Shown here one piece after another: positions 3,357 to 49,278 of a stretch of DNA of 64,000 nt. This stretch comes from Gammaproteobacteria bacterium. Lineage in GTDB: Bacteria > Pseudomonadota > Gammaproteobacteria > JBCCGL01. The DNA is taken from positions 160,001 through 224,000 of the forward strand of contig OZ255836.1 in assembly GCA_965277715.1 (NCBI GenBank). Direction: 5' to 3'. Made by a program: the position numbers and the translations under genes. Below the pieces are notes generated by a model. That model was given only the letters and a program-made list of their open reading frames with translations, made no database searches and had not been told where the DNA came from. Numbering within the stretch: position 1 is the first letter of the stretch; every line of letters starts with the position of its first letter.

Positions 3357-4247
3357 CTATACCGTTGGCAGCATAAGCGTTTTCCTTTCGCCCAGCATAA
3401 CCTGCGCCAATGACTGAGCGGACTTTTGAATAGCCCCCTGTAAAGTAAGTTGCTCTTCGTTTACGGTAACTTTGTAACTTATCAGCTCCAATAGCTGGCG
3501 TCTCAATTCCTGATCCAGCTCGGCGTTAGCGTCACACGCTTGTATCAACTGCCAGACATGCAAATCCACATAAGGCCGGTAAGGTTCCATTACATCGTCT
3601 GATAGGCAATAGGCGTTGTAGCGGTTGTGATGATGTATACCCAACGACGGGTGTAGCCCCGCAGCACACAAGGAGCGACTGACCAAAGCGCGCAAGATAG
3701 CGTAGCCATAATTGAGAAAGCGGTTTTGATCCGGTGCGTCTCTATCTCTTTTAAAACCTTCGCCCTTAAACAGGCGGCTCCAATAGCGACGGGCCGCCTG
3801 AGCCTCGATATTGGCAGGGTCGCCGGAACGCACCTTTTTTACCAACACTGACAAACCAGCGTCATTTCCCGTAAGGTCTTGCAAAACGCGGCCTTGAAAG
3901 CGGATTTTGGCCTGAATCAGTTGCTTCCATAGTGCCTTTTTCACGGGTTTCTGCAGTTCCACTTGTGCGGCAAAGCGTTCGGTTTGTAAGGTATTACTGT
4001 CCAGCGGCATAAACAGGCCAATAGGGTGATGGCTCTGGTTACTGCTGATCACCATCACATTTGCCTGTACCAGCTCACTCAAACAATATTGAGTAATCAG
4101 TGTTTGCGGATGGTCGATAATCACCGCAGAGAGGTCTTCTATGGGCACGGAGCCAATCTGTTGCTTATCGCGTTCGATAATCAGTTGCTGATGGCGGTAG
4201 CTGAGATAGCAGCCTTCTGTGCCGATTTCGATAATCCGCTTACTCAT
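3357..4247 (-). CDS. cas1: Type II CRISPR-associated endonuclease Cas1
   Basis: NIEAQAARRYW, LNYGYAILR, LGIHHHN..NAYCLSDDVMEPYRP. Confidence 0.97.
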   Translation of the reverse strand: MSKRIIEIGTEGCYLSYRHQQLIIERDKQQIGSVPIEDLSAVIIDHPQTLITQYCLSELVQANVMVISSNQSHHPIGLFMPLDSNTLQTERFAAQVELQKPVKKALWKQLIQAKIRFQGRVLQDLTGNDAGLSVLVKKVRSGDPANIEAQAARRYWSRLFKGEGFKRDRDAPDQNRFLNYGYAILRALVSRSLCAAGLHPSLGIHHHNRYNAYCLSDDVMEPYRPYVDLHVWQLIQACDANAELDQELRRQLLELISYKVTVNEEQLTLQGAIQKSAQSLAQVMLGERKTLMLPTV

Positions 4248-7200: not shown

Positions 7201-7309
7201 AGATACGCACGCCCATATCGACTATGGACTGCGGTGTGGGGTCAACGTCAATCAGGCACCAACCAACTGAGCTGGTACCAAGGTCGAGGCCGAGAATGGT
7301 TTTTTTCAT
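4240..7309 (-). pseudogene. cas9: Type II-C Cas9 (~1020 aa if repaired), split into two ORFs by one frameshift at ~5806-5809
   Basis: RuvC-I ILGLDLGTSSVGW, bridge helix and REC in 5777-7309; RuvC-II IIRVEMARD, HNH DIEHIIPYS...N...N and RuvC-III HHAIDA in 4240-5832; no csn2 or cas4. Confidence 0.93.
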
Positions 7310-7328: not shown

Positions 7329-7409
7329 GTTTATTAGGTTTAGTGTTGCAGTTTTTGTAGGAATAGAAAAATTGCTTTGTCGTTTATTAGATTTTAGTGC
7401 AGTTTTTGT
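7329..7409. repeat. Pair of imperfect ~29-bp direct repeats upstream of cas9
   Basis: GTTTATTAGGTTTAGTGTTGCAGTTTTTGT (7329-7358) and GTTTATTAGATTTTAGTGCAGTTTTTGT (7382-7409). Confidence 0.7.
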
Positions 7410-8836
7410 TTTCGTGTGATTTTACTCAAGGTTGCCCGATTTCACAGTTACTAATTTTTGTTATGAAAATAGCTGTAAATGCCCTTGAATAGTCTGGCTA
7501 TGATGTGCTTTTCAGTTTGTTTTCCCCTGGAATCGCTAATGTTTAGGCTGATGTCTGTTCCCGGTGGCGCACTCACTGCTATTCTGATGGGTTCATCATT
7601 TGCTTTAGAGGGGATTATTTCTTTGTTCATAGAAAAACATCAGTGTTTCAAAATTCCTGGCTGTCGAGGTTTTAAATGCCTCACTAAGCTATGCATAATA
7701 GTTCTAAGGGACTTTCTTGTCATTATTGCATTTTGCAGAGAGCGGATGGTGAATGAGCATATACGGGTAATTCTAGCGTAAAAAAACAATGGATTAACAA
7801 AGCCGCCTTTTTTCTGGGCAATTTGTTGTCTCTTATCAAGCATTTTAGTGTATTTTTTATCAGATGGATGAATACATTCCAGGTTCTTTGTTTTTGATGT
7901 TTCTTCAAAAATACGCATGATATTATAGGCCATGGCAGTAAAACGCATTTGACTGTTCAGCGCATTCAGGTTTGAAGACCAGGCTTTTCTTTCGGTGAAA
8001 TCACTTTTACTATTGTTGAATGATTTTTCTATCGTCCAACGCTTGTAATAGAGCATAGCAATAGTGCCTTGGTTAATTGACTCTGGTAGCGTTGAAATAA
8101 ATTGATGTAATTGACCTGTTTCTGGGTCGCGGTATTTAACAATATGAAATTGGACCTTTTTATTTTTATATACACTATAGCCTTCAACCCCTGTATTAAT
8201 TTCACTACCCTGGTCATAGGGTATAGAGTTGACAAAAGTTGCAACTGCATTTTCTTTGAGTACTGAAATCATAAAATTCTGATGCTGTTTTTGCTTTTCC
8301 CACCATGCATAATCAGTCACCGCCTTATCGTATATATAGAGGTGCTTTTGCCAAGTCTCTTTTTCGCCACAACGTTGTTCAATATAAGAACGTAACGCGG
8401 GTATTTCCTGGTGCCGTTCAGTACCGTTAGTCACGACACAAAGTGGTCTTAGAAGTCCATTTCTGAGGTTCAAGGCATGAATAAAGCCTGCTGCGAAGAC
8501 GTTGCCCTGACGATTTTTCTCTGTGTGACAAGCATGCTGTATAAAATGACCATCAGCTGCTTCTACTCGATATTCTTCAAGTTCAGGAAATTGTTTTAAA
8601 TAATCAATGTCCAAAGAAGATAATTTCTCACTTTGCAGTTGATAGCTTTGCTTTTCCATGGCTTCCATCATCTTCATCCGTCTTGTCGACTTTAATGCGT
8701 TAAAATAGCTTGAATGACAAATTGTCTCGTCGTATATTTCATCCGTAACCTGTAGATAGTCCCCCTGTGTCAGGGTAGTTGTCCCCCTCCCTAAATTGGG
8801 ATTCAATAAGTTATTACAGGAGGCAAAGAGAGAGAT

Positions 8837-9331
8837 ATGGGTTATCCAATAGAAAGAAAGGCCGCTGTTTTAAAGAAGATGCTGCCGCCGAACAATCAGA
8901 CAATTTCCCGGTTAGCCAAAGAAGAAGGCATTGCACAAGGTACGCTTTATAGTTGGCGAGCCCAAGCAAGAGCGAAAGGCGAACTCATGCCAGATGGCGA
9001 TTTGACACCAGCAGGTTGGGGTTCTTCGGATAAGTTTGCAGCGGTACTGGAAAGTGCGTCATTAAGCGAAACAGACCTTTCAGCTTATTGCCGTCATCGT
9101 GGTTTGTACCCTGATCAGATTAAGGCGTGGCGAATGGCTTGTGAACAAGCCAATGACTGGGATCGCGCCCAAACGAAGCGTTTACAAACCAGTCGTAGAG
9201 AAGCGGATAGACGTATTAAACGTCTCGAACAAGAACTGCACCGAAAGGAGAAAGCGTTAGCCGAAACAGCCGCTTTGCTGGTGCTTAGAAAAAAGGCCCA
9301 AGCGATCTGGGGGGAGGTAGAGGACGAATGA
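8837..9331 (+). CDS. IS3 transposase OrfA
   Basis: HTH plus coiled coil ending ALAETAALLVLRKK; A6G slippery site at 9289-9295. Confidence 0.9.
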   Translation: MGYPIERKAAVLKKMLPPNNQTISRLAKEEGIAQGTLYSWRAQARAKGELMPDGDLTPAGWGSSDKFAAVLESASLSETDLSAYCRHRGLYPDQIKAWRMACEQANDWDRAQTKRLQTSRREADRRIKRLEQELHRKEKALAETAALLVLRKKAQAIWGEVEDE

Positions 9332-10407
9332 CCTGCCATTCAGATCGCCAAAATAGTATCCGTTTAATCAAAGAGGCCGTTGTCGCTGGCGCTACATTAA
9401 GCAAAGCTTGCAAAGTGCTTGAATTACACCCTAAGACGTACCGACGCTGGGCAAACGCGGGTACTGTCCGCGCTGATGGCAGACCCAGCGCTCATCGACA
9501 GGCGCCTGGTAATAAGTTCACAGCAGAAGAGCGGGCATTGATCGTCACCACTTGTAATGAAGCGAAATACCAAGCGCTACCCCCCTCGCAAATTGTGCCC
9601 AAATTGGCGGATGAAGGTGTGTATATTGGATCAGAGTCAAGCTTCTATCGGGTGTTAAAGTCGGAAAACCAACTGCAGCGGCGAGGTAAGGCGGCGGCGC
9701 CTAAAAAACGGCACAAACCTAACAGCTACCTGGCATCAAGGCCAAACGAGGTGTGGTCTTGGGATATTACCTTTTTGAAATCGAACATAACCGGGTGGTT
9801 TTACCGGCTTTATATGATGATGGATATTTACAGTCGTAAAATTGTTGCCTGGGAAGTACATGACAGTGAATCGGCTGATCTGGCAGCGGCGCTGATCCAG
9901 CGTGCCTGTTTAGCGGAGGGATGCAGCCAGAGTCAATTGGTATTACACGCGGATAATGGTGGCCCGATGAAAGGTGCTACCATGTTAGCAAAACTGCAAT
10001 GGTTGGGTGTGATACCTTCGTTTAGCAGGCCATCGGTAAGCGATGATAACCCTTATTCAGAAAGCCTGTTTAGAACCTTAAAATACACGCCTGCCTATCC
10101 GTCAAAGCCATTTGATAGTTTAGCCTCTGCCCGAAACTGGGTGCATGGATTTGTGCAATGGTACAACGACTCTCATTGCCATAGCGGCATTGGGTTTGTG
10201 ACACCAACCTCACGTCATAAAGGCGAAGACCACGCGATACTGGCAGCCAGAAAAGCAGTTTATGAACAAGCAAAGGCCAAACACCCTGAACGCTGGAGTC
10301 AGGATATTAAACACCTCGAACCGGTATCGGGGGTGTGGTTAAACCCGGAAAAGGAAGGCTTGGTTATGAGACAAAAGCACAATGGAATTGAAGAGCAAGT
10401 AGCATAG
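9328..10407 (+). CDS. IS3 transposase OrfB (integrase core)
   Basis: WSWDIT, LHADNG, DNPYSESLFRTLKY DDE triad. Confidence 0.92.
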   Translation: MTCHSDRQNSIRLIKEAVVAGATLSKACKVLELHPKTYRRWANAGTVRADGRPSAHRQAPGNKFTAEERALIVTTCNEAKYQALPPSQIVPKLADEGVYIGSESSFYRVLKSENQLQRRGKAAAPKKRHKPNSYLASRPNEVWSWDITFLKSNITGWFYRLYMMMDIYSRKIVAWEVHDSESADLAAALIQRACLAEGCSQSQLVLHADNGGPMKGATMLAKLQWLGVIPSFSRPSVSDDNPYSESLFRTLKYTPAYPSKPFDSLASARNWVHGFVQWYNDSHCHSGIGFVTPTSRHKGEDHAILAARKAVYEQAKAKHPERWSQDIKHLEPVSGVWLNPEKEGLVMRQKHNGIEEQVA

Positions 10408-32359: not shown

Positions 32360-34107
32360 TGTGATTACCAAGGGATTGTGTCGGTCTAACTACCGAGCGA
32401 CTTTGTCGTAGATAGGATATCATCCAGTTGCTACACTGGCTATGGTTTACGCACTTTTCTGAGAGCTTGCGATTTCTCTACTCTTAAAGCCGTGGTATTC
32501 ATATTTTGCCGCAGCCATATACCGCGAACACCACCTGGGCTTATATCAGCACCCAGAGCGGCAGAGAGTTTCAAGGCCACCTTTTGTTGACCAAGATGAG
32601 GATGTTCGACAGAGAATTGCACAACGGCATCCTCAATTGCCTTATCCACGCAGTTTTTATGCCGTATGTTGGGTGTTTCTTGTCGTTTTAAGGTCTCTAC
32701 ACCGCCTTGTTTAACCCGCTTTAAATGGCGATAAATGGTGTCACGTGAGACGCCACTCAAACGAGATACTTCAGATACGTTACCCAACCTTTTAACTAAA
32801 GCCAACACCTCTAATTTCTTCTGTACAGCTAAGTCTTCGGTAGCTAGTTTGCTTGGTTCAGTGACTTCTGATATCTCAAGTTTTCGCCCAGCGAAGTGGG
32901 CAGTGAAGCCTTTCTTGTGGGTATTTCTGATTTCGATTTTTTGATTTGCAATAGAATATTTAAGCGGTGAATCAATCAAGTAAAACTTATTTCCATAGCT
33001 GAAGGTGTGGTCGTTGCGTATTTTTCGATGGTCTTTGATGACGCAGATGTCATCAAGATTGGCGTATCTTGGCAAGGGCGTAAATTCAGAAGGTAGCTGT
33101 TTTGCTTTGACTTGAATATGATTTTGCCAGAATTGGGGAATAAATACGTGTTTTAGATATGTGTTGGCACTTGCAATGTCTTTGATGTTGCTAAGTCTTA
33201 GCTCAGGCACAAGGCGGTCTTGGAAAGTATCGAAGGCACGTTCAATACGCCCTTTTCCTTGTGGTGAATTGGCGAAGATAATCTCAATACCTAATTCTTC
33301 ACAGGCCCGCTGCATTTGTGAAAAGTTACAACGCTTAGGGCCACCGAAGATACCCGCTCTATCCACATAAAGCGTTTTAAATAATCCCTTCGTTTCAATG
33401 CAATCTCGCATGACCTTCAAGCAACCAACGGTGGTTTCAGAGGGGAAGAACTCTGCATACACTTCACTGGTGGCATCATCAATCATGGCAATTAAACAGT
33501 GTTTCTTATCGCCAAACCAACGATGCGGGCTACCATCCATCTGCATCATTAAGCCCGGTGCTTCCATACGCTCTCTGCGTTTACGGGCTTTACCGCGCCT
33601 ACGTTTAGCGCGTTTTACATGGTGGATATCGTGCGCCCAACCGCGCAGAGTTTCGCGCTTTACCATAATATGATCATTCGCCTTAAGCTTTTCAGCAAGA
33701 TGCAGCAAATTTAAATCAAAATACTTGTCTTTGATTAAGGCTTGCACCGCTTTTTTTATCGACACTGGTATTTTATTCTGCGGCGGCTTACCGCTGTTAC
33801 CATGCACGGCAAACTGAATACCGACTTGCTGATATCGCTTCACATAACGTTCAATGCTGCGTCGAGACTTACTGAGTAATTTAGCCGCATTGGCAATCGT
33901 TATTCTGCCTTCAACTACTTTAGCAATTATATCAACGGTGAGTTGCGTTTTAGAATCCATCATGATCATCCTCAACATGCCTCTAGCATTCAAAAAAAGA
34001 ACACTAACAAACATGTAAAAAAGAGACCGACAGTTTCCCTTGGTAATTAGCGATTACGACAGAATCGCTTGGTAATTAAGGTACGACAAAGTCGCTTGGT
34101 GTTAACA
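32360..34107 (-). mobile_element. IS1202-like (ISNCY) element with TGT termini and repeated subterminal sites
   Basis: TGTGATTACCAAGGGATTGTGTCG vs TGTTAACACCAAGCGACTTTGTCG (18/24); three CGACA-N-CTTGGT repeats at ~34028-34100; no target duplication. Confidence 0.82.
32440..34014 (-). CDS. ISNCY/IS1202-type DDE transposase with extra C-terminal HTH
   Basis: QMDGSPHRWF, IDDAT, YVDR, SPQGKGRIERAFDTFQDRL. Confidence 0.88.
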   Translation of the reverse strand: MFVSVLFLNARGMLRMIMMDSKTQLTVDIIAKVVEGRITIANAAKLLSKSRRSIERYVKRYQQVGIQFAVHGNSGKPPQNKIPVSIKKAVQALIKDKYFDLNLLHLAEKLKANDHIMVKRETLRGWAHDIHHVKRAKRRRGKARKRRERMEAPGLMMQMDGSPHRWFGDKKHCLIAMIDDATSEVYAEFFPSETTVGCLKVMRDCIETKGLFKTLYVDRAGIFGGPKRCNFSQMQRACEELGIEIIFANSPQGKGRIERAFDTFQDRLVPELRLSNIKDIASANTYLKHVFIPQFWQNHIQVKAKQLPSEFTPLPRYANLDDICVIKDHRKIRNDHTFSYGNKFYLIDSPLKYSIANQKIEIRNTHKKGFTAHFAGRKLEISEVTEPSKLATEDLAVQKKLEVLALVKRLGNVSEVSRLSGVSRDTIYRHLKRVKQGGVETLKRQETPNIRHKNCVDKAIEDAVVQFSVEHPHLGQQKVALKLSAALGADISPGGVRGIWLRQNMNTTALRVEKSQALRKVRKP

Positions 34108-40395: not shown

Positions 40396-40580
40396 TGTGT
40401 GGGGTTTTTTTGCTTTGAAGCTACGTTTCACCAAGTTGATAGCGAATTCAATAACCAGACATCCTTTATCACGGCGATATTTTGTTGCTGGCTTTAGAAT
40501 ATACACAGTGATGCTTTAGTCTTCAGACAAAATATCTTCTGGATTAAATCAAGCGTTTTTGGGTGTGTTTGTTAATCCTG

Positions 40581-40734
40581 TTTAAAAATGCGCAAGGTGT
40601 GGCTTTATCACCTGCAACATCGCATGAAAAATTTTGGGGTTAGCCGCCACTACCTGCTTACCGTGTAACCAGTCTTCACCGCCACTGAAATCGCCAACCA
40701 GGCCACCCGCTTCACGGATGATTAAACTCCCGGC
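40581..40734 (-). repeat. Duplicated 3' end of suhB (154 bp), probable island boundary
   Basis: 145/154 identity to 47708-47861, including the stop codon. Confidence 0.92.
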
Positions 40735-41707
40735 AGGAGCCATTGTCACCAGCCACGCCAATTGAGTGAAGAAGAACGTTCTGTGGTATTGAATACGCTC
40801 AATAATTGGGAATTCTATGATCAACCACCAGCACAGGTCTACCACACCCTGCTCAGTCGCTGTATTTATCTCTGCTCCATCAGCACCCTGCACCGACTGC
40901 TGCGCCAGTCCGATCAGTCAGGGGAACGCCGAAGACAGCGCCCTGGGCAAGCCAACGCGGTGCCAAGGCTTTCAGCCAGCCAACCTAATGAGGTCTGGAC
41001 GTGGGACATTACAAAACTCGCCACCGTTGAGTGCGGTGTTTACTTATCGCTTTATGTAGTGATGGATTGATTCAGTCGCTATATTGTGGCTTGGATGCTT
41101 TCTCATAAAGAAAACAGCGCACTGGCACAGCCGCTCATTCAAGAGGCCAATACACGTTACGCGATTAGACCCGGCCAGTTGACGCGGCATCAAGATCGCG
41201 GGACTCCGATGACAGCACATTGCTACCTGGACTTATTGGTCGAGTTGGCAGTCACTGCAAGCCACAGCAGACCCCGCGTGAGTAATGATAACCCTCACAG
41301 TGAAAGCCAATTCTGAACACTGAAGTATCAGCCTGACTACCTGCGTCGCTTTGACCATTATCGCCATGCTAACAGGTGGTGCACTGAGTATGTCGATTGG
41401 TACAACCATCAGCACTGCCACAGTGCCTTAGAGGGCTTCACGCCTTGTCAGGTATTGACTGCACAGCACCTGTCTCTCGGTCAAGTTTGTCAACAGGCGC
41501 TGGATAAAAAGTATGCCCAACATCCAGAGCGATTCGTACATCAGCGGCCTCTTGTCAGGATGCCGCCTGCGAAGATCTACATTAACCCCGTACACGATGA
41601 ACTGGGGAATATAGAACACGATGCGCACGTCAACTTTCCAACTCTAAATCGAGCTAAATCTATGCTAACTTGAATAACTATGGCTTGAAACAGGTTGACA
41701 CCTTCCG
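40735..41707 (+). mobile_element. IS3-family orfB remnant with stops, right end only
   Basis: WTWDITKL, HQDRG, SRPRVSNDNPHSESQF*; ends ...TTGACA-CCTTCCG. Confidence 0.85.
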
Positions 41708-41780
41708 TATACTTTTCCTGCCTTAAAATATTTTAATTAAGGAAAAACTCATGTTTGTGACTAATTGGGGATAAGACACC

Positions 41781-44700
41781 ATGCTATGCAGGTATACCAA
41801 CAAAGGGTTGTTGCTGATTGTATTTTCATTGCTGATAACGGCGTGTGGTGGCGAAAACGCCTCAACACTACCGCTACCACCACCTGCTGGCGATTCAACT
41901 AGCGGCTCCCAGGTCATCCTTGGCCCTATTGTCGGGGCAACAGTCAGTGCAGCGCTGGCCAGTAATACCGCCAACACTATCGAAACCACCACCACTACCG
42001 GAAGTGCCACCAACTTGAATAGTGCAGGCCGCTTTTCTCTACAGTTGACCGGTGTCACTGATGGTGTCTGGGTGCTGGTCAGTGTGACGGGGGGTAATGA
42101 CATCGATGCTGACGATAATGGCGTGCTGGATGCCACCCCCACCGCCAACCAAGGCACAATAAGGGCACTGGGCAAAGCGGCGGACTGGCGCTCTGGCAAC
42201 GCCAATATCACCGTTCTTTCAGAAATACTGGTCAACCGTCTGCTCAATGGCGGGATTGATCTCAATACCCTCACCGATAGCCAGGTCGAAAGTGGGTTGA
42301 ATGCCACCAGTGTGCAATTACTACAAACCAATGCCGATGTTAACGGTGACAATATCAGCAACTATCAGGACATCCTCGGCTTTACTCCGCAAAATCAAAA
42401 CTACCCGGCTAGCGTGGCATTGGCTGATCTCAACACTATTGCTGTCATGCTGGAAAGCGGTAACGCTGCACAAACAGATAATCTAATCACGGCGTTGCTT
42501 AATCAGCCACCGGTGGCCAATGCGGGCAGTGACCAGGTTGTTGCTGAAGGTAGCACGGTGAGCCTCAACGCCACCGGCACGGATACGGATGGCACTATCG
42601 ACCGTTATGCCTGGGTGCAAAACGCGGGCACCACTGTTACCTTAACAGGGGCTGCCACAGCGGCAGCCACCTTCGTCGCGCCCCTATTGCCCGCCAATAC
42701 TGCCACCGAGACCTTGAGTTTTACCCTGACAGTTACCGATAACCTCGGCGCCAGCGCCACAGATACAGTGGTCGTCACCCTCCAGGACAGCAATAACAAT
42801 GCACCTGTAATAACCAGCGCCAACAGCGCCAGCGTCAGTGAAAATACCACTGCTGTACTCACCCTCACCGCCAGTGACGCGGATACGACGGGTGAAACCA
42901 CCACTTACGCGCTCAGTGGCGATAACGCCAGCTTATTTACCCTTAACGGTTCGGCGTTGGCCTTCCAGAATATGCCGGATTTTGAGGTGCGTCCCTGTGG
43001 TGTCGATAACATCTGTAACCTAATAATAACCCCCAGCGATGGTACCAATACCGGGCCTGGACAGACATTTGCCGTCACCCTGGTGGATGTCAACGACAGT
43101 GCCCCGATCATTACCAGTGGCAGTACCGTTAGCGTTTTGGAAAATACCACGGTGGTACTCACCCTCACCGCCAGTGACGCGGATACGACGGGTGAAACCA
43201 CCACTTACGCGCTCAGTGGCGATAACGCCAGCTTATTTACCCTTAACGGTTCGGCGTTGGCCTTCCAGAATATGCCAGATTTTGAGGTGCGTCCCTGTGG
43301 TGTCGATAACATCTGTAACCTAATAATAACCCCCAGCGATGGTATCAATACCGGGCCTGGACAGACATTTGCCGTCACCCTGGTGGATGTCAACGACAGT
43401 GCGCCGGTAATGACCAGCGCCAGTACGGTCAGTGTCGACGAAAACACCACGGTGGTACTCACCCTCACCGCCAGTGATGCCGACAGCACCGGCGAGGCGA
43501 TAGACTTCACGCTTGGTGGTAGTGATGCATCGAGTTTTCGTCTTGTGGGTTCAGCGTTGAGTTTTAGCAGCGCGCCCGACTTTGAAACCCCGGTATGCGG
43601 TGATAATGTCTGTACGATTACCCTCACGCCCAGCGATGGGCTTAATACCGGCAGTGGGCAAACTGTAACGGTTAGTGTCCAGGATCTGAACGACACTGCG
43701 CCGGTAATGAGCAGCGCCAGTACGGTCAGTGTCGACGAAAACACCACGGTGGTACTCACCCTCACCGCCAGCGATGCCGACAGCACCGGCGAGACGATAA
43801 GCTTCACGCTTGGTGGTAGTGATGCATCGAGTTTTCGTCTTGTGGGTTCAGTGTTGAGTTTTAGCAGCGCGCCCGACTTTGAAACCCCGGTATGCGGTGA
43901 TAATGTCTGTACGATTACCCTCACGCCCAGCGATGGGCTTAATACCGGCAGTGGGCAAACTGTAACGGTTAGCGTCCAGGATCTGAACGACACTGCGCCG
44001 GTAATGACCAGCGCCAGTACGGTCAGTGTCGACGAAAACATCACGGTGGTACTCACCCTCACCGCCAGTGACGCGGATACGACAGGTGAAACCACCACTT
44101 ACGCGCTCAGTGGCGATAACGCCAGCTTATTTACCCTTAACGGTTCGGCGTTGGCCTTCCAGAATATGCCGGATTTTGAGGTGCGTCCCTGTGGTGTCGA
44201 TAACATCTGTAACCTAATAATAACCCCTAGCGATGGTATCAATACCGGGCTTGGACAGACATTTGCCGTCACCCTGGTGGATGTCAACGACAGTGCGCCG
44301 GTAATGAGCAGCGCCAGTACGGTCAGTGTCGACGAAAACACCACGGTGGTACTCACCCTCACCGCCAGTGATGCCGACAGCACCGGCGAGGCGATAGACT
44401 TCACGCTTGGTGGTAGTGATGCATCGAGTTTTCGTCTTGTGGATTCAGCGTTGAGTTTTAGCAGCGCGCCCGACTTTGAAACCCCGGTATGCGGTAATAA
44501 TATCTGTACTATCACCATTACCCCCAGTGACGGCGTCAATATTGGCAGCGCACAAACGATCACAGTAACCGTTAACGACCTCGCCGCCATCACTCTGGCG
44601 AATAGCAATATCAACGAGGGAAACAGCGGTACGACAGTAGTCAATGTCAACGTTAGCCTCGCGTCGATAGCTACCGCCAGTGTCAGTTTCAGTGTGAGCG

Positions 44701-45620
44701 ACGGCACAGCGACTACAGCAGATAATGACTACAGCGTAGCCAACAGCACCGGCACCCTTAACTTTACCGGTGGCTCGACAACCGCAGTGGTAGCTATCAC
44801 CATCAATGGCGACACACAAGTAGAGAGCGATGAAACCCTCAGCATTGTACTAAGTAACCCCATCAACGCCGAACTACAGGGCATTAGCACAGCAATATTG
44901 ACGATCAACAACGATGATTCAGCAGCCCCAACGCTTAACGACACCGGCGTTGTGTTTGGTGCAGACACCAACCTGAACAACAGTGGTTGCACCAGCGCCG
45001 ATACGGTTATCGCCCAGCAGGATTGTTCGCGGGGCCGGGATGTCACCAATAACGACGCCAGCGATGGCCACGCGGGGTTTAGTTTCACCAAAATCAGCAG
45101 CACAGGTCAACCCCTGGCGGCTAGTGCTAGCGCTTGGGCCTGTACACAGGACAATATCACCGGTCTGATGTGGGAGGTAAAAACCAATGATAACGGCCTA
45201 CACGATAGGGGTGATATGTACACTTGGTATAGCACCGACAGTAGCAATAATGGTGGCAATGCGGGTACCGAAAATACTACAACCAGCTGCTTTGGCTACA
45301 ATAATGCCGATGCAGCGACCTTTTGCAACACCCAGGCGTATGTGGCACGCATTAACGCGGCGGGCCTATGCGGTTTTACTGATTGGATCTTGCCGGGCCG
45401 TGAACAACTGCGCTCGATAGCCAATCGCAATAGTTTTAATCCGGCTATCGATACCGCTTATTTTCCAAATACCCGATCCGATAATTTTTATTGGTCGTCG
45501 TCGCCCCTCGCCAACAACAATGCCAACGCGTGGGACTTCTTCTTCTTCGACGGCAGCGATAGCAACTTCTTCAGCAAGAGTAGCAACCATTTTGTTCGTG
45601 TTGTTCGCGCCAGTCAGTAG
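41781..45620 (+). CDS. Large surface lipoprotein/adhesin: PKD-like domain, six cadherin-like repeats, Calx-beta, C-terminal DUF1566 (Lcl); DGR target
   Basis: LITAC lipobox; DVND.AP/PDFE repeats; DNITGLMWE...LP..EQL.S...YWSSS Lcl motifs. Confidence 0.88.
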   Translation: MLCRYTNKGLLLIVFSLLITACGGENASTLPLPPPAGDSTSGSQVILGPIVGATVSAALASNTANTIETTTTTGSATNLNSAGRFSLQLTGVTDGVWVLVSVTGGNDIDADDNGVLDATPTANQGTIRALGKAADWRSGNANITVLSEILVNRLLNGGIDLNTLTDSQVESGLNATSVQLLQTNADVNGDNISNYQDILGFTPQNQNYPASVALADLNTIAVMLESGNAAQTDNLITALLNQPPVANAGSDQVVAEGSTVSLNATGTDTDGTIDRYAWVQNAGTTVTLTGAATAAATFVAPLLPANTATETLSFTLTVTDNLGASATDTVVVTLQDSNNNAPVITSANSASVSENTTAVLTLTASDADTTGETTTYALSGDNASLFTLNGSALAFQNMPDFEVRPCGVDNICNLIITPSDGTNTGPGQTFAVTLVDVNDSAPIITSGSTVSVLENTTVVLTLTASDADTTGETTTYALSGDNASLFTLNGSALAFQNMPDFEVRPCGVDNICNLIITPSDGINTGPGQTFAVTLVDVNDSAPVMTSASTVSVDENTTVVLTLTASDADSTGEAIDFTLGGSDASSFRLVGSALSFSSAPDFETPVCGDNVCTITLTPSDGLNTGSGQTVTVSVQDLNDTAPVMSSASTVSVDENTTVVLTLTASDADSTGETISFTLGGSDASSFRLVGSVLSFSSAPDFETPVCGDNVCTITLTPSDGLNTGSGQTVTVSVQDLNDTAPVMTSASTVSVDENITVVLTLTASDADTTGETTTYALSGDNASLFTLNGSALAFQNMPDFEVRPCGVDNICNLIITPSDGINTGLGQTFAVTLVDVNDSAPVMSSASTVSVDENTTVVLTLTASDADSTGEAIDFTLGGSDASSFRLVDSALSFSSAPDFETPVCGNNICTITITPSDGVNIGSAQTITVTVNDLAAITLANSNINEGNSGTTVVNVNVSLASIATASVSFSVSDGTATTADNDYSVANSTGTLNFTGGSTTAVVAITINGDTQVESDETLSIVLSNPINAELQGISTAILTINNDDSAAPTLNDTGVVFGADTNLNNSGCTSADTVIAQQDCSRGRDVTNNDASDGHAGFSFTKISSTGQPLAASASAWACTQDNITGLMWEVKTNDNGLHDRGDMYTWYSTDSSNNGGNAGTENTTTSCFGYNNADAATFCNTQAYVARINAAGLCGFTDWILPGREQLRSIANRNSFNPAIDTAYFPNTRSDNFYWSSSPLANNNANAWDFFFFDGSDSNFFSKSSNHFVRVVRASQ

Positions 45621-45633
45621 CCTTGGTTTTTGG
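45489..45633 (+). repeat. DGR variable region 1 plus IMH-like tail
   Basis: Shares framework with 46579-46724; differences are at codon positions 1-2. Confidence 0.85.
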
Positions 45634-45651
45634 TGAGGTGAGGGTGCCGAA

Positions 45652-46127
45652 ATGAATCCGTTTATGCCGACGATTGTCCGAGATGTCGAGCGCCTTAGCT
45701 ATTGGGGGCATTACAGTCATGCTAATAGTTTTCGCCTACGTCAGCAACTGATGCAGCAATTTCCCTGGTTACCCGTTTTATTTTCAAGCCATCAGGGAAA
45801 GCTGATACGCAAGTATTACCCACCCAAACAACTTCATTGGTGTGAAGGCAGGGCTAATCTTGTCAGTCAGTTGCAGTATTTTCGCCACTTTTACCCACAG
45901 GTGTTGTTGTGTTAGTACAGTTGGGCTATCAGATGTTGCTGGTAACGCCTGATATGGCGATCGGTGATATCTTGCAAAAAGCCCCGCGTTATCAATGGAA
46001 CAAAGCCATAAAACCCACGCAATCGGCAGTATGGGTTAGTGAACAAGGCTATCTTCAAAACGGTGGTCGCCACCGTATCGCCACCCATTTTACCAACTAT
46101 ATTTCCCCCCTCAATAGTTATGACTAA
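45652..46127 (+). pseudogene. DGR core remnant: 15 Avd-like N-terminal residues fused to an RT C-terminus, then frameshifted
   Basis: MNPFMPTIVRDVERL / SYWGHYSHANSFRLRQQL (RT thumb-like); tail LVQLG...VSEQGYLQNGGRHR; no YxDD motif. Confidence 0.65.
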
Positions 46128-46146
46128 CCACCTGGAGGCAGTGACC

Positions 46147-46710
46147 ATGCCCGGATTAGAACACCCCAAAGTAACGCAATTACGTTACGCGCTAGTATTA
46201 CTGCTCTGCTGTGTGGCAAGCGGTATCGCTAGCGCAACGTGCAATAGCAATATCGTGCGTACAGCGCCAGACAACCGCTACCAGATTCAAGCAGGGGGCG
46301 CAGAGGTGCTGGATACACAAACCAATTTGATCTGGCAACGCTGTAGTCTAGGGCAAACCTTTAATAATCTAGGCACCGCAGAGACCAGCGATGATCGCTG
46401 TGATAACAGCGCCACAGCTTACACCTGGCAGGGGGCGTTACAGGCAGCGCAGGGTATTGCGACTAATAGTGGTCAGGCGTGGTTTTTGCCGAATATCAAC
46501 GAGCTGGCCAGTCTTGTCGAGCTGGCGTGTAGCCCGGTTATCAATGAAACCGTTTTTCCTGACACACCATCGTCTACTTATTGGTCGTCGTCGCCCGTCG
46601 CCTCCAACAATATCGCCGCGTGGATCCTCGACTTCAGCAGCGGCGGCGATGACTTCAGCAGCAAGAATGACAACAGCCGTTTTGTTCGTGTTGTTCGCGC
46701 CAGCCAGTAG
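46147..46710 (+). CDS. Secreted DUF1566 (Lcl) protein; second DGR target
   Basis: SD GGAGG; signal peptide; DTQTNLIWQRC, WFLPNINELASL, YWSSS. Confidence 0.9.
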   Translation: MPGLEHPKVTQLRYALVLLLCCVASGIASATCNSNIVRTAPDNRYQIQAGGAEVLDTQTNLIWQRCSLGQTFNNLGTAETSDDRCDNSATAYTWQGALQAAQGIATNSGQAWFLPNINELASLVELACSPVINETVFPDTPSSTYWSSSPVASNNIAAWILDFSSGGDDFSSKNDNSRFVRVVRASQ

Positions 46711-46724
46711 CCTTGGTTTTTTGG
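46579..46724 (+). repeat. DGR variable region 2 plus IMH-like tail
   Basis: Same framework as variable region 1. Confidence 0.85.
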
Positions 46725-46812
46725 AAGGGGAGTGTAAAAGGTGGAGGGTTGAACAATTTGGATACACCCATAAGCCCACTTTCTAGCCCCCATGTATTTA
46801 CTTGTATGCAAG

Positions 46813-46998
46813 CTAATACAAGGTAGGCGGTGCTCCATTGTATATATGGAGTATTTCGACAATGCCATGTGGCTCGTCGATATGGTAGTACACATGATAA
46901 CGCCGGTATACCAGCATACGTATGTGCGGATACTGTGCGTATCGTGCCACGTTCGCATGAGGAAAAAGCGGTAGCGTATCTTCAATAAAACAGACACC
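46813..46998 (-). pseudogene. RelE/ParE-family toxin C-terminal fragment
   Basis: Manual translation FIEDTLPLFPH...IRMLVYRRYHVYYHIDEPHGIVEILHIYNGA; no start codon. Confidence 0.5.
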
Positions 46999-47177
46999 CT
47001 AGCATGAGAAGAGTTTTCGCCAATTGTGCGTGATGTGATTCTCTTTGACAGAATAGTTTGCAAAAAACGGGCGCAAAAAAGAGGCAAATCGGCTTTTCTG
47101 TAGTAGAGCAGTCTTGAACCCGACAGGCTCCTCGCCCTGATATCGCGCTTTTGTCAAATTCACGTTACAGTACCTAG

Positions 47178-47423
47178 ATGGCTACTATGATTTCTGAAGT
47201 TTATGAGGCGTTCCGTGTCGTAGGCGTACCGGAAGATAAGGCCCGTGAGGCGGCAGAGGCTCTTTCTGCTGAGAGTTTGGCGACTAAAGGGGATATTCAA
47301 TCGCTTAAAGAACAAACGAAACCTGACATTGCCCGATTGGAGACTAAAATTACCCTGTTGCAATGGATGGTCGGTCTGGTGATTGTGGTTGAAATATTGC
47401 CTTTGCTGAAGACGCTGTTTTAG
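47178..47423 (+). CDS. Small coiled-coil membrane-anchored protein (CCDC90/DUF1640-like)
   Basis: GVPEDKAREAAEA...LATKGDI...LLQWMVG plus TM helix. Confidence 0.7.
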   Translation: MATMISEVYEAFRVVGVPEDKAREAAEALSAESLATKGDIQSLKEQTKPDIARLETKITLLQWMVGLVIVVEILPLLKTLF

Positions 47424-47708
47424 GTTCTTATTAACCATTGAAATAGACGCAACTTCAAGAGCCTCAACCGCCTTATTCGTTTTTTTGCGCTAATCAGTAG
47501 CCTTGGTTTTTTTGGGGAGGGGTGTGAAGGGTTGGCGTGATATTTGTGGTGCACAAATCCAGTTCAGTTTGTTTTGTTCGACCGGACTTCCTAAGCCAAT
47601 TCAAAATTTCTACTAGCTTATGAATGCCCCATTTCCCTTTTTCTCCTGGGCAGGAAATAGTATTAATTATGAGATGAGGCCATGGAAATATTCATATATT
47701 GATCATAT

Positions 47709-48497
47709 TTAAAAATGCGCAAGGTGTGGTTTTATCACCTGCAACATAGCATGGAAAATTTTGGGGTTGGCCGCCACTATCTGCTTACCGTGTAACCAAT
47801 CTTCACCGCCACTGAAATCGCCAATTAAGCCACCCGCTTCACGGATGATTAAACTCCCGGCGGCAATGTCCCAGGGGTTTAACCCGGTTTCCCAAAAGCC
47901 GTCGAGCCTGCCAGAGGCAACATAAGCCAGATCAAGCGCCGCCGCACCCGGTCGCCGGATACCGGTGGTGTGCTGGATAAAATCACGTAACAATGCCATG
48001 TAATGGTCGGTATTTTGTGTTTCAAGGTAGGGAAAACCCGTGCCAAGCAGGCTGTTTTCCAGTGTGCGGTGGTTGGATACGCGCAGGCGTTTGTTATCCA
48101 GCCAGGCGCCGCGCCCGCGTGAAGCGGTGAATAGTTCCTGGCTGACTGGATCATAGATAACTGCCTGTTCGAGCTTGCCGGATTTTTGCAATGCAATGGA
48201 TACGGCAAATTGTGGGAATCCGTGCAGGTAGTTGGTCGTGCCATCCAGTGGGTCGATAATCCACACGTAATCACTGTTACCCGATGCACCGGATTCCTCT
48301 GCCAAAACCGCGTGGTCGGGGTAGGACTGGTGTAGCGTCTGGATGATTTTTTCCTCGGCCTGCCGGTCGACATTCGAGACAAAATCATTGTGTTGTTTTT
48401 TTTCTATCGTCAGTGTATCGATGCGTTCGAATTGACGCATAATAACGTTGCCAGCGGCGCGGGCAGCGCGGATGGCAATATTCAACATAGGATGCAT
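47709..48497 (-). CDS. suhB: Inositol monophosphatase SuhB
   Basis: MHPMLNIAIRAARAAG, WIIDPLDGTTN, PWDIAAG; divergent from trmJ. Confidence 0.96.
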   Translation of the reverse strand: MHPMLNIAIRAARAAGNVIMRQFERIDTLTIEKKQHNDFVSNVDRQAEEKIIQTLHQSYPDHAVLAEESGASGNSDYVWIIDPLDGTTNYLHGFPQFAVSIALQKSGKLEQAVIYDPVSQELFTASRGRGAWLDNKRLRVSNHRTLENSLLGTGFPYLETQNTDHYMALLRDFIQHTTGIRRPGAAALDLAYVASGRLDGFWETGLNPWDIAAGSLIIREAGGLIGDFSGGEDWLHGKQIVAANPKIFHAMLQVIKPHLAHF

Positions 48498-48555
48498 GTC
48501 GCAGACAACAGGTGATTTGGAAGGGGCGGCATGATAGCAGAATTTGAGGTGATCA

Positions 48556-49278
48556 ATGCAGCAAAACGTGCGTTTTGTGCTGGTGGAAACATCGCACCCC
48601 GGCAATATCGGTGCCGCCGCCAGGGCGATGAAAAATATGCAGTGCAGTCAGCTTTACCTGGTGCGGCCCCGGTTTTTTCCACACGCCGATGCCACTGCGC
48701 GCGCAGCGGGTGCAGATGATATTCTGGCGCAGGCTCAGGTGTGTGAATCGCTGGAGCAGGCTTTGCAGGGCTGTCATCTGGTGTATGGTGCCTCGGCGCG
48801 ATTGCGCAGTATTGCCTGGCCATTGGAAACCCCGCGCCAGTGTGCCAGTGCTATCGCTGCAAACCGTGAACAAAGCACCCCGGCAATTGTATTTGGTCGC
48901 GAGCGCACGGGCTTGACCAATGAAGAGCTCGATCTATGCCACAAGATGCTGCATATCCCCTGTAACCCGGACTACAGTTCACTCAACATTGCGGCGGCAT
49001 TGCAAGTGGTTGCGTATGAACTCTTTGTGGCAAATGCCGAACCGGAGGTACAAACTGACCACTATGAAACCGGTGAGCGCGCTGCCACGCTTGAAGAAAT
49101 GACGCTGTTTTACGCACACCTTGAGCGCACTATCACCGCAACACAGTTTCTGGACCCGGATAACCCCCGCCAACTGCCGCGTCGTCTACGTCGTTTTTTT
49201 AATCGCAGTAAACCGAGTAACGTGGAGCTTAATATTCTGCGCGGTATTTTAACTTCGGTCGAAAAACACACAGGCTAA
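48556..49278 (+). CDS. trmJ: tRNA (C32/U32-2'-O)-methyltransferase
   Basis: TSHPGNIGAAARAMKNM, FGRERTGL, YSSLN. Confidence 0.95.
   Translation: MQQNVRFVLVETSHPGNIGAAARAMKNMQCSQLYLVRPRFFPHADATARAAGADDILAQAQVCESLEQALQGCHLVYGASARLRSIAWPLETPRQCASAIAANREQSTPAIVFGRERTGLTNEELDLCHKMLHIPCNPDYSSLNIAAALQVVAYELFVANAEPEVQTDHYETGERAATLEEMTLFYAHLERTITATQFLDPDNPRQLPRRLRRFFNRSKPSNVELNILRGILTSVEKHTG

What the first reader, a model, noticed from the sequence alone, without database searches (positions are those of the whole stretch)
45489..46724. Two DGR variable regions with an adenine-mutagenesis footprint but no template repeat
Seen: the last 132 nt of two otherwise dissimilar Lcl genes share a framework and the tail CAGTAGCCTTGGTTTTT. 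In codons 1-24, ten codons differ, always at positions 1-2 with third-position C kept (AAC/TCC, GCC/ATC, TTC/GAC, TTC/AGC); codons 25-34 show the same pattern with offsetting one-codon indels. Known: this is what retrohoming from an AAC-rich template yields, and DUF1566 C-type-lectin folds are common DGR targets. Inference: a multi-target DGR varying a large lipoprotein adhesin and a small secreted partner, now frozen or served in trans.
Basis: partly seen in the sequence, partly recalled or inferred. Interest (0 to 1): 0.85.

Follow-up and report, generated by a model that had tools for sequence, protein, structure and literature searches.

The report
Fossil diversity-generating retroelement with frozen targets
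Two surface-protein genes of a sponge-associated bacterium still carry the scars of a retroelement that once rewrote their tips, but a deletion has removed the element's template and most of its reverse transcriptase, so the tips now look frozen; this kind of decay is already known.

Summary
The last 132 nt of a 1279-aa lipoprotein adhesin gene (VR1, 45489-45620) and of a 187-aa secreted Lcl_C gene (VR2, 46579-46710) share exact flanks. They differ almost only at codon positions 1-2, in codons that end in C.

The 526 nt between the two genes hold the C-terminal third of a DGR reverse transcriptase, in two frames (45637-45912 and 45858-46124). A related gammaproteobacterial genome (G079) has the intact layout: large Lcl target, small ORF, AAC-rich template repeat, 499-aa RT, small Lcl target. 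In the window one deletion removed the accessory ORF, the template and about 350 RT codons.

Contigs from three sponge metagenome studies carry the same truncation. VR1 matched the window in all four runs laid, with one difference in one run unplaced. VR2 differs by two bases in two runs and is a different allele in one.

A third decayed VR tail lies at 47440-47530. The block sits between 163-nt duplicates of the suhB 3' end, next to an IS pseudogene.

Verdict: a fossil DGR of the Legionella (DUF1566/CLec) type. It is a new member of a known kind and of modest interest. Service in trans could not be excluded, because the genome is not held.

The parts
40572..40734 (.). Left copy of a 163-nt direct repeat: a displaced duplicate of the suhB 3' end. 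It marks the left boundary of the block.
   Evidence: family D2: 93% identical to 47699-47861. Pfam Inositol_P matches the frame 40582-40893 (-) weakly.
40726..41673 (+). IS-type transposase pseudogene (integrase core, rve) broken over three frames.
   Evidence: Weak rve matches on 40762-41070 and 41086-41316. Stop-to-stop frames 40726-41070, 41071-41316 and 41317-41673.
41781..45620 (+). Large target gene. It encodes a 1279-aa lipoprotein (N-terminal ...LITAC lipobox, read by eye) with PKD/Big_9, six cadherin-like repeats of about 300 nt, Calx-beta and a C-terminal Lcl_C domain.
   Evidence: Pfam (Lcl_C 5.1e-25 at residues 1121-1276; Cadherin, Big_9, Calx-beta). Repeats, family D1. Translation.
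45489..45620 (+). VR1: former variable region of the large target, 44 codons including the stop.
   Evidence: In one search every difference of X2, X3 and X6 is accounted for outside VR1. In X1, 8 of 9 differences are placed outside it and 1 is unplaced.
45621..45650 (+). Shared tail downstream of the VR (CCTTGGTTTTT plus G-runs), followed by the deletion junction. There is no GC hairpin.
   Evidence: Fold gives z -0.43. X1-X3 lack 5 nt at 45632.
45637..45912 (+). RT remnant, frame A. It corresponds to the SYWGH region just C-terminal of the polymerase domain (profile columns 355-421).
   Evidence: phmmer over 1.84 billion representatives gave 29 hits at E<=1e-3. 13 of the 14 long hits scanned carry RVT_1, and the P0002 match lies beyond that domain (positions). 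BLASTP against P0129: 46% over 71 aa, E 3e-16. hhalign: probability 99%, E 2.3e-18.
45858..46127 (+). RT remnant, frame B. It continues into the C-terminal extension (profile columns 411-484) after a frameshift near 45905.
   Evidence: hhalign: probability 64%, E 6.4e-5, collinear with frame A. BLASTP against P0131: E 3e-4. Two collinear BLASTP matches to P0137, E 0.002 each. No Pfam hit. X3 carries a 23-nt insertion at 46059.
46147..46710 (+). Small target gene. It encodes a 187-aa secreted Lcl_C protein with a signal peptide, then a C-type-lectin-like domain.
   Evidence: Pfam Lcl_C 2e-28. Translation. AlphaFold2 model with pLDDT 86. Best structural match is the Legionella Lcl C-terminal domain 8q4e_A, Z 12.1, rmsd 2.6 A, 113 residues. 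Mtd 1yu3 scores Z 9.2.
46579..46710 (+). VR2: former variable region of the small target.
   Evidence: Two differences (46598 T>C, 46675 A>G) in X1 and X2, matching protein P0005. X3 holds a different allele: its contig leaves the window at 46602 (table 5).
47440..47530 (+). Decayed relic of the 3' end of a third VR plus the shared tail. It looks like a VR (it carries CTC and CGC codons) and is not adenine-rich, so it is not a template repeat.
   Evidence: family D4, alignment. One-base deletion and non-A substitutions read.
47699..47861 (.). Right copy of the 163-nt repeat. It is the 3' end of the intact suhB gene (47709-48605, minus strand).
   Evidence: family D2. Pfam Inositol_P 4.4e-74.

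Best explanation
This is the remains of a chromosomal diversity-generating retroelement (DGR) of the Legionella type, whose targets are DUF1566/Lcl_C proteins with a C-type-lectin fold.

Inferred history, by homology with G079: the element was laid out as large Lcl adhesin gene with VR1, a small accessory ORF, an AAC-rich template repeat, a reverse transcriptase with a long C-terminal extension, and a small secreted Lcl gene with VR2. At least one further target lay downstream. RNA of the template was copied into cDNA with errors opposite adenine. That cDNA replaced the last 132 nt of each target, giving NNC codons that differ at positions 1-2.

Shown: a deletion running from just behind the VR1 tail (about 45645) into the RT gene removed the accessory ORF, the template repeat and about 350 RT codons, including the polymerase domain. 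The remaining RT tail then took a frameshift.

Shown or inferred: the two target genes remain open. Their variable tips have been inherited as ordinary DNA since then. They are frozen apart from point changes, codon indels and allele exchange.
For: (1) Footprint. The flanks are exact and unique to the two sites. Of 25 differences, 24 lie at codon positions 1-2, and 21 of 28 variable-zone codons end in C.

(2) RT remnant between the targets. Frame A matches an alignment of 14 RT-family sequences (11 with an RVT_1 match, 3 short ones without) at columns 355-421 (probability 99%, E 2.3e-18). Frame B matches columns 411-484 (E 6.4e-5). 13 of the 14 long phmmer hits that were scanned carry RVT_1, and the P0002 match lies C-terminal of that domain.

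(3) No intact RT. No ORF of 150 aa or more in the 64-kb window has RVT_1: 19 ORFs were scanned and 37. There is no third copy of the flanks.

(4) Intact homologue in G079, contig C276. The order is a 2069-aa Lcl gene, a 124-aa ORF, the template repeat, a 499-aa RT (RVT_1 2.2e-13) and a 227-aa Lcl gene. Template-to-VR mismatches fall on template adenines in 16 of 18 cases (small VR) and 15 of 22 (large VR), while A makes up 29% of the template.

(5) Family-wide pattern. In 121 homologues, the columns that differ between VR1 and VR2 have about 3 bits of entropy and are dominated by Y, N, S, G and D. The framework columns have under 1 bit.

(6) Fold. The model is C-type-lectin-like: Lcl C-terminal domain Z 12.1, Mtd Z 9.2.

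(7) Population data. Contigs of X1, X2 and X3 (three studies) and X6 all run through 45602-46602 with no insertion above 23 nt, so all carry the truncated RT. VR1 shows no placed difference in any of the four. VR2 shows two in X1 and X2.
Against: - The whole genome is not held, so a template and RT elsewhere cannot be excluded.
- X3 carries a clearly different VR2 allele although it shares the RT truncation (table 5). This needs either allele import or a later rewrite. The 3' half of the X3 small gene is also more diverged than its neighbourhood: 6 substitutions and 2 insertions in 46378-46602, against 2 substitutions and a 23-nt insertion in 45602-46378.
- VR1 and VR2 are not collinear. Each has one extra codon at a different place, which plain retrohoming from one template does not give.
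- None of the three tails has the GC hairpin that follows both VRs in G079.
- The frame B match is weak (probability 64%).
- Contigs drop rare variants, so low-level variation would not have been seen.
Confidence: 0.8

Rival explanations
1. The element is still working in trans. A second DGR elsewhere in the genome supplies the template and RT, and VR1 and VR2 are remote targets that are still rewritten.
For: Both targets are intact ORFs with exact 18-nt and 21-nt flanks. X3 has a different VR2 allele despite sharing the cis truncation. Remote targets, and target genes in strains without a core DGR, are described for Treponema denticola (passages of PMC4891356).
Against: VR1 shows no placed difference in four runs from four studies, against a background divergence of roughly 0.4-1%. 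At 212x and about 1000x contig depth, no alternative letters at 10% or more were listed inside the VRs, but contigs hide rare variants. The codon indels between VR1 and VR2 do not fit one template. There is no hairpin. Exact-flank scans of the viral and metagenome collections found no relative.
Confidence: 0.1
2. No retroelement was ever involved. The two Lcl_C tails are ordinary paralogues whose flanks were homogenised by gene conversion and whose binding loops diverged under selection.
For: Lcl_C genes are common without an RT. 52 of 400 sampled gammaproteobacterial genomes have a hit, and only 10 of those 52 also match the RT profile. In G127 the neighbouring large and small Lcl genes are 70% alike over 244 nt with no sharp boundary, and no RT was found in that genome.
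Against: An RT remnant lies exactly between the two genes. 24 of 25 differences are at codon positions 1-2 with C kept at position 3. The same gene order with a working-type template occurs in G079.
Confidence: 0.03
3. The stretch 45637-46127 is not debris but a retained small accessory gene: the RT C-terminal, MutS-like module used on its own.
For: G222 has an open 211-aa gene that joins the RT N-terminus (E 5e-8) directly to the C-terminal part (E 1e-8), with no polymerase core. It sits behind a template repeat and between two Lcl targets. P0131 and P0137 look the same by eye. One RT homologue, P0136, carries a MutS_I domain after this region. Small MutS-like accessory proteins are reported in 16 DGRs, including the Legionella one (passages of PMC5758913).
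Against: In the window the region is split over two frames and lacks the N-terminal part. X3 has a 23-nt insertion in frame B. Pfam gives no hit.
Confidence: 0.05

Closest known systems
Legionella pneumophila DGR (target LdtA): category 'd' targets and the MutS-like (MSL) architecture of Wu et al. 2018 (PMC5758913; passages seen)
   Same: The targets are DUF1566/Lcl_C proteins with the variable region at the extreme C-terminus. One target is a surface lipoprotein. About half of this target class are short DUF1566-only proteins and half carry adhesion domains, and the window has one of each. Related RTs end in a MutS-like part. The model of the small target matches the solved Legionella Lcl C-terminal domain best (Z 12.1).
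   Different: In the window the template repeat, the Avd-position ORF and the polymerase domain are gone. In the relatives found here the MutS-like part is fused to the RT rather than a separate gene. No GC hairpin follows the VRs. The Legionella sequences themselves were not compared here.
[quoted passage not shown]
   Same: Target genes with VR-type sequence persist in strains in which neither RT nor template can be found. The authors read them as remnants of the core element.
   Different: Here the deletion can be placed to within a few bases, because a third of the RT gene survives between the two targets. The host is a sponge-associated gammaproteobacterium, and the targets belong to the DUF1566 class.
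Intact two-target DGR of genome G079, contig C276
   Same: The gene order and orientation are the same: large Lcl gene, then RT, then small Lcl gene. The VR framework is the same (WSSSP ... AW ... F ... G ... VR.VR.SQ stop). The RT has the same SYWGH region and long C-terminal extension.
   Different: G079 keeps a 124-aa ORF, the AAC-rich template and a 499-aa RT, and has 8-bp GC hairpins after both VRs. The small proteins are only 44% identical. Its template is 18 and 21 nt shorter than its two VRs.
Bordetella phage BPP-1 DGR (Mtd)
   Same: The variable residues are displayed on a C-type-lectin fold at the C-terminus of the protein (Mtd 1yu3: Z 9.2, 127 residues aligned). The codon pattern is the one expected from adenine-specific rewriting of AAC-type codons (mechanism as stated in the abstracts listed).
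   Different: BPP-1 is a phage-borne, single-target, complete element. The window has a chromosomal, multi-target, decayed one.

Membership tests
Diversity-generating retroelement (functional cassette) | A DGR-clade reverse transcriptase gene with an intact polymerase domain at the locus | tested here: not met
   Only the C-terminal third survives, in two frames. No RVT_1 match in the 56 window ORFs scanned. The rest of the genome is not held.
Diversity-generating retroelement (functional cassette) | A template repeat homologous to the VR, with adenines at the variable sites | tested here: not met
   The flanks occur only at VR1 and VR2 in the window at up to 3 mismatches. The third tail copy at 47440-47530 is VR-like, not A-rich. 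Not testable outside the 64-kb window.
Diversity-generating retroelement (functional cassette) | VR differences confined to template-adenine positions | tested here: inconclusive
   With no template, only a proxy is available. 24 of 25 VR1/VR2 differences lie at codon positions 1-2, and 21 of 28 codons end in C. The variable columns coincide with the AAC/AAT codons of the G079 template and with the high-entropy columns of 121 homologues.
Diversity-generating retroelement (functional cassette) | Accessory gene (Avd or similar) in the cassette | tested here: not met
   There is no such ORF between or beside the targets. The 124-aa ORF in that position in G079 and the 82-aa ORF in G222 resemble each other by eye, but the G079 ORF has no Pfam hit, and its longer 169-aa frame (P0127) no NCBIfam hit. 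The G222 ORF was not scanned.
Diversity-generating retroelement (functional cassette) | Hairpin or cruciform shortly after the VR | tested here: not met
   The three window tails fold no better than shuffles (z -0.43, +0.36, +0.20). Both G079 VRs are followed by an 8-bp GC stem.
DGR variable (target) protein, C-type-lectin class | VR at the C-terminal end of a C-type-lectin-like fold in a secreted or surface protein | tested here: met
   Pfam Lcl_C scores above the cut-off in both proteins (88.5 and 99.5 bits against 34.9). Model pLDDT is 86. 8q4e_A scores Z 12.1, snake-venom and other C-type lectins about Z 9, Mtd Z 9.2. The signal peptide and lipobox were read.
DGR remnant (former member) | Homologous locus with the same gene order that is a complete DGR | tested here: met
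   G079 contig C276. G222 has a partly decayed version that keeps a template but has an RT without its core.
MSL-containing DGR architecture (Wu et al. 2018) | MutS-like accessory protein or domain | tested here: inconclusive
   One RT homologue of the 14 long hits scanned (P0136) has Pfam MutS_I after the SYWGH region. Window frame B, P0131 and P0137 have no Pfam hit at E<=1.

The most novel reading that the evidence does not exclude
Loss of the polymerase core may be a recurrent and possibly selected end state in this DGR family, not random decay. G222 carries an open 211-aa gene that joins the first 43 or so RT residues directly to the SYWGH and MutS-like C-terminal part. It still sits behind a template repeat and between two Lcl targets. 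Two database proteins, P0131 and P0137, look the same. The window would then hold a later stage of that route. On this reading the C-terminal module has a job that needs no reverse transcription, for example guarding or recombining the VR genes. The VR2 allele change in X3 and the codon indels between VRs could come from RT-independent exchange among VR copies.
Probability: 0.1. Interest if true: 0.6.

Novelty: new member of a known kind. Interest (0 to 1): 0.3.

Why it matters
It shows how a DGR dies and what it leaves behind. The targets stay open. Their binding tips keep the NNC codon signature. The break can be placed almost to the base, because part of the RT survives.

For annotation, such "orphan" variable regions would be missed by tools that start from an RT. 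They mark adhesins whose ligand-binding surface was once tuned at high speed. In a host-associated bacterium, a frozen tip is consistent with a settled partner.

The side observations are leads for people who study DGR turnover: RT genes without a polymerase core, templates shorter than their VRs, and most Lcl_C genes sitting in genomes without this RT. None of this changes what is known about how DGRs work.

Tried and rejected
- Whole-genome search: not possible, because no genome is held for the window.
- Members of the P0005 cluster: the database was switched off.
- My one scan of genome contigs was wasted on too loose a pattern. All 20 hits are in unrelated, mostly Actinomycetota and Planctomycetota records and were treated as chance.
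- The exact 21-nt 3' flank in the metagenome collection gave two chance hits in unrelated contexts, and none in the viral collection.
- The 18-nt 5' flank in the viral collection gave one chance hit. The tail pattern gave none.
- These collections therefore hold no close relative of the VRs. That says nothing about the source genome.
- The first AlphaFold2 model, from 17 sequences, was useless (pLDDT 46). It was replaced by a model from 121 sequences.
- phmmer of P0004 against PDB sequences gave no hit.
- Foldseek alone gave no match at E<=0.001.
- BLASTP of frame B against P0125, P0129 and P0130 was not significant.
- X3 has no contig lying on 46603-46691. I use only the joint in table 5, not the hole. 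I could not read the letters of that contig.
- I considered the relic at 47440-47530 as a truncated template. I rejected this because its surviving codons are VR-like and its differences from the VRs are not at adenines.
- I considered VR1-to-template recombination as the deleting event. I rejected it because that would leave the RT whole.
- Literature: two searches on DGRs with DUF1566 and with sponge symbionts, one on truncated RTs and one on LdtA. No paper among the 7 listed has DGRs in its title, and only one mentions them in its abstract. I read none of them.
- Supplementary tables of PMC5758913, which list every DGR architecture, were not open to me.
Full report
**What is there**

The window carries two genes on the + strand that end in the same 132-nt module.
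- Gene 1 (41781-45620) encodes a 1279-aa protein. It has an N-terminal lipobox (read by eye), PKD/Big_9, cadherin-like, Calx-beta and a C-terminal Lcl_C domain. It contains six repeats of about 300 nt.
- Gene 2 (46147-46710; ATG behind a GGAGG) encodes a 187-aa protein with a signal peptide and one Lcl_C domain.

**Checking the observation**

- The 5' flank of 18 nt and the 3' flank of 21 nt are exact in both modules. At up to 3 mismatches they occur nowhere else in the 64 kb.
- The 17-nt tail behind the stop has a third copy at 47495.
- Ten of the first 24 codons differ, always at positions 1-2.
- With two offsetting one-codon gaps, 25 of 129 positions differ: 13 at position 1, 11 at position 2 and 1 at position 3.
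- 21 of 28 variable-zone codons end in C, against 40% and 27% in the rest of the two genes.
- The 132 nt upstream of the modules are unrelated (27% identity).

**Why there is no template**

The 526 nt between the genes hold two short frames.

Frame A (45637-45912):
- Against 1.84 billion representative proteins it finds 29 proteins at E<=1e-3.
- I scanned 14 of the longer ones. 13 carry Pfam RVT_1, and the match lies C-terminal of that domain.
- It is 46% identical over 71 residues to P0129, a 513-aa RT (E 3e-16).
- It matches columns 355-421 of an alignment of 14 RT-family sequences, 11 of which have an RVT_1 match (probability 99%, E 2.3e-18).

Frame B (45858-46124):
- It matches columns 411-484 of the same alignment (probability 64%, E 6.4e-5).
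- It also gives weak, collinear BLASTP matches to P0131 and P0137.
- It gives no significant match to P0125, P0129 or P0130.

The stretch is therefore the last third of a DGR-type RT gene, with a frameshift near 45905. The first 350 or so codons, with the polymerase domain, are missing. No window ORF of 150 aa or more has RVT_1 (19 scanned, 37).

**The intact relative**

I sampled 400 genomes of the class that holds G001, taken to be Gammaproteobacteria (in the GTDB sense) from L009's Variovorax record title; the tool names no group. The small protein found matches in 52 of them. In several, a large and a small Lcl gene are neighbours.

In G079 (contig C276) an RT lies between them. Read on its coding strand, the locus is:
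1. a 2069-aa Lcl gene with its VR;
2. an 8-bp GC hairpin;
3. a 124-aa ORF in the place where Avd usually sits (no Pfam hit for it; no NCBIfam hit for its longer 169-aa frame P0127);
4. an AAC-rich template repeat;
5. a 499-aa RT (RVT_1 2.2e-13);
6. a 227-aa Lcl gene with its VR and a second hairpin.

Template-to-VR mismatches fall on template adenines in 16 of 18 cases for the small VR and 15 of 22 for the large one. Adenine is 29% of the template.

The window has the same order and orientation, minus everything from the hairpin to RT codon 350 or so. A single deletion from about 45645 into the RT gene explains it. This step is inferred from the comparison. The event itself is not observed.

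**Support from the protein family**

- Of 321 database relatives of the small protein at E<=1e-5 (545 candidates), one cluster is 99% identical and the next is 55% by BLASTP.
- In an alignment of the 120 listed relatives plus the query, framework columns have under about 1 bit of entropy. These are WSSSP, A-W, F, G, K and VR.VR.
- The columns where VR1 and VR2 differ have about 3 bits and are filled with Y, N, S, G and D.
- An AlphaFold2 model built from that alignment has pLDDT 86.
- The model matches the Legionella Lcl C-terminal domain best (8q4e_A: Z 12.1, rmsd 2.6 A, 113 residues).
- Next come Bd2740 (Z 10.8), then many C-type lectins (about Z 9) and the phage variable protein Mtd (1yu3: Z 9.2, 127 residues).
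- Foldseek E-values alone were weak.

**Is it frozen?**

The stretch is held by sponge metagenome runs of three studies (share of words 0.68-0.77) and by runs of a coded organism A (share 1.00), which may be the source. I laid four runs on 44500-48000.
- All four have contigs that run through 45602-46602 with no insertion longer than 23 nt. All therefore carry the truncated RT.
- For VR1, every difference in the X2, X3 and X6 contigs is accounted for outside it. In X1, 8 of 9 differences are placed outside it and one is unplaced.
- VR2 has two placed differences in X1 and X2 (46598 T>C, 46675 A>G) and one unplaced. The 99% protein P0005 shows the same two changes and no other.
- The X3 contig leaves the window's VR2 after 24 nt. 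Its last 55 letters lie best on the 3' part of VR1 (table 5). X3 therefore holds another VR2 allele, whose letters I could not read.
- The 3' half of the X3 small gene is also more diverged than its surroundings. That fits import of a foreign allele as well as it fits a rewrite.
- Background divergence is roughly 0.4-1%.

Taken together, the tips behave like ordinary DNA. Contigs cannot show rare variants, however, and the rest of the genome could not be searched.

**Other anatomy**

- A relic at 47440-47530 keeps the last 70 nt or so of a VR and the shared tail. It has a one-base deletion and non-adenine changes. It is VR-like, not A-rich.
- The whole block, 40572-47861, lies between 163-nt direct repeats (93% identical) that are the 3' end of suhB. 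Inside the left repeat sits a transposase pseudogene in three frames. No integrase was found.
- The three VR tails share CCTTGGTTTTT plus G-runs, but no hairpin.
- VR1 and VR2 each carry one extra codon relative to the family's commonest spacing. VR1 has it before the conserved K and VR2 after it. Only 7 of 121 sequences have a residue at the VR2 extra position.
- Indels are not foreign to this family. The G079 template is 18 and 21 nt shorter than its VRs.

**Comparison with what is known**

- Wu et al. 2018 (PMC5758913; passages) describe a target class overlapping DUF1566. They exemplify it by the Legionella DGR with its surface lipoprotein LdtA.
  - Half of that class are short DUF1566-only proteins and half carry adhesion domains.
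  - About 15% of DGRs have several targets.
  - A MutS-like accessory protein occurs in 16 DGRs, including the Legionella one.
- One RT homologue here (P0136) has MutS_I behind the SYWGH region.
- Nimkulrat et al. 2016 (PMC4891356; passages) report T. denticola isolates that lack RT and template yet keep target genes. They read these genes as remnants.

Orphan variable regions left by a lost DGR are therefore known. The window adds a case in which the break is visible.

**Context counts**

- The RT profile matched 44 of 399 sampled genomes at E<=1e-15. One further genome was not scored. The tally includes two genomes flagged as unpublished, G141 and G308, on which nothing else rests.
- 10 of the 52 genomes with an Lcl hit are among those 44, by my comparison of the two tables. 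These genomes may be incomplete, and at most three candidates per genome were scored.
- G222 has a partly decayed version. It has a target, an 82-aa ORF and a template. Next comes an open 211-aa gene that joins the RT N-terminus (E 5e-8) to its C-terminal part (E 1e-8) without the polymerase core, followed by the small target.

**Verdict**

The element is a fossil DGR of a known type. Its novelty is that of a new, decayed member, and its interest is modest.

Noticed in passing
L040 (G222:C4) 5693-6328; proteins P0131 and P0137: These look like RT genes with the polymerase core cleanly missing. In G222, an open 211-aa frame joins RT residues 5-47 to residues 341-493 (numbering of the G079 RT). 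It lies behind a template repeat and between two Lcl targets. Two database proteins look the same by eye.
   Followed up: partly
L035 (G079:C276) 6270-6405 against 4262-4405 and 6927-7075; L040 5592-5724: The template repeats are shorter than their own variable regions: 18 and 21 nt shorter in G079, and by eye also shorter in G222. The missing codons lie in the run of AAC codons. This may be slippage in the template, and it would mean no homing has happened since.
   Followed up: partly
window 45621-45650, 46711-46745, 47512-47535: All three VR tails are followed by T-runs and then several G-runs instead of the GC hairpin seen in G079. Whether the G-runs form a structure was not tested.
   Followed up: no
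window 46783-46832 and 47071-47132: Short stretches of about 50-60 nt also lie on several other long contigs of every run laid. Summed depth is about 5 times the neighbourhood. They are probably a small dispersed repeat of this genome.
   Followed up: no
window 3357-7309 (minus strand): A type II CRISPR gene set with cas1 (3357-4247) and a cas9 split into two overlapping frames. 4240-5832 carries HNH and RuvC_III. 5777-7309 carries the Cas9 alpha-helical lobe. It is probably a frameshifted cas9.
   Followed up: no
window 7640-10407 and 32440-34014: There are several insertion-sequence genes besides the pseudogene at 40726-41673: DDE_Tnp_1, an HTH_Tnp_1 plus rve pair, and a 524-aa HTH protein. 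The genome region appears rich in mobile elements and broken genes.
   Followed up: no
window 46059 (run X3), 45632 (runs X1-X3): Strain differences inside the RT remnant and its junction: a 23-nt insertion (from its letters probably a duplication of the adjoining sequence) in X3, and a 5-nt loss in a GGTGA tandem in X1-X3. Both fit neutral drift of a dead gene.
   Followed up: partly
L036 (G127:C1) 7329-7572 and 8078-8321: A neighbouring large and small Lcl gene pair in a genome where no RT was found. The two ends are 70% alike over 244 nt with no sharp VR boundary. This is either an older fossil or a pair that never had a DGR.
   Followed up: partly
L035 2288-2386, 3200-3298, 4052-4150, 13396-13464, 13538-13624: A repeat of about 100 nt flanks the G079 DGR on both sides. 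Its nature is unknown.
   Followed up: no
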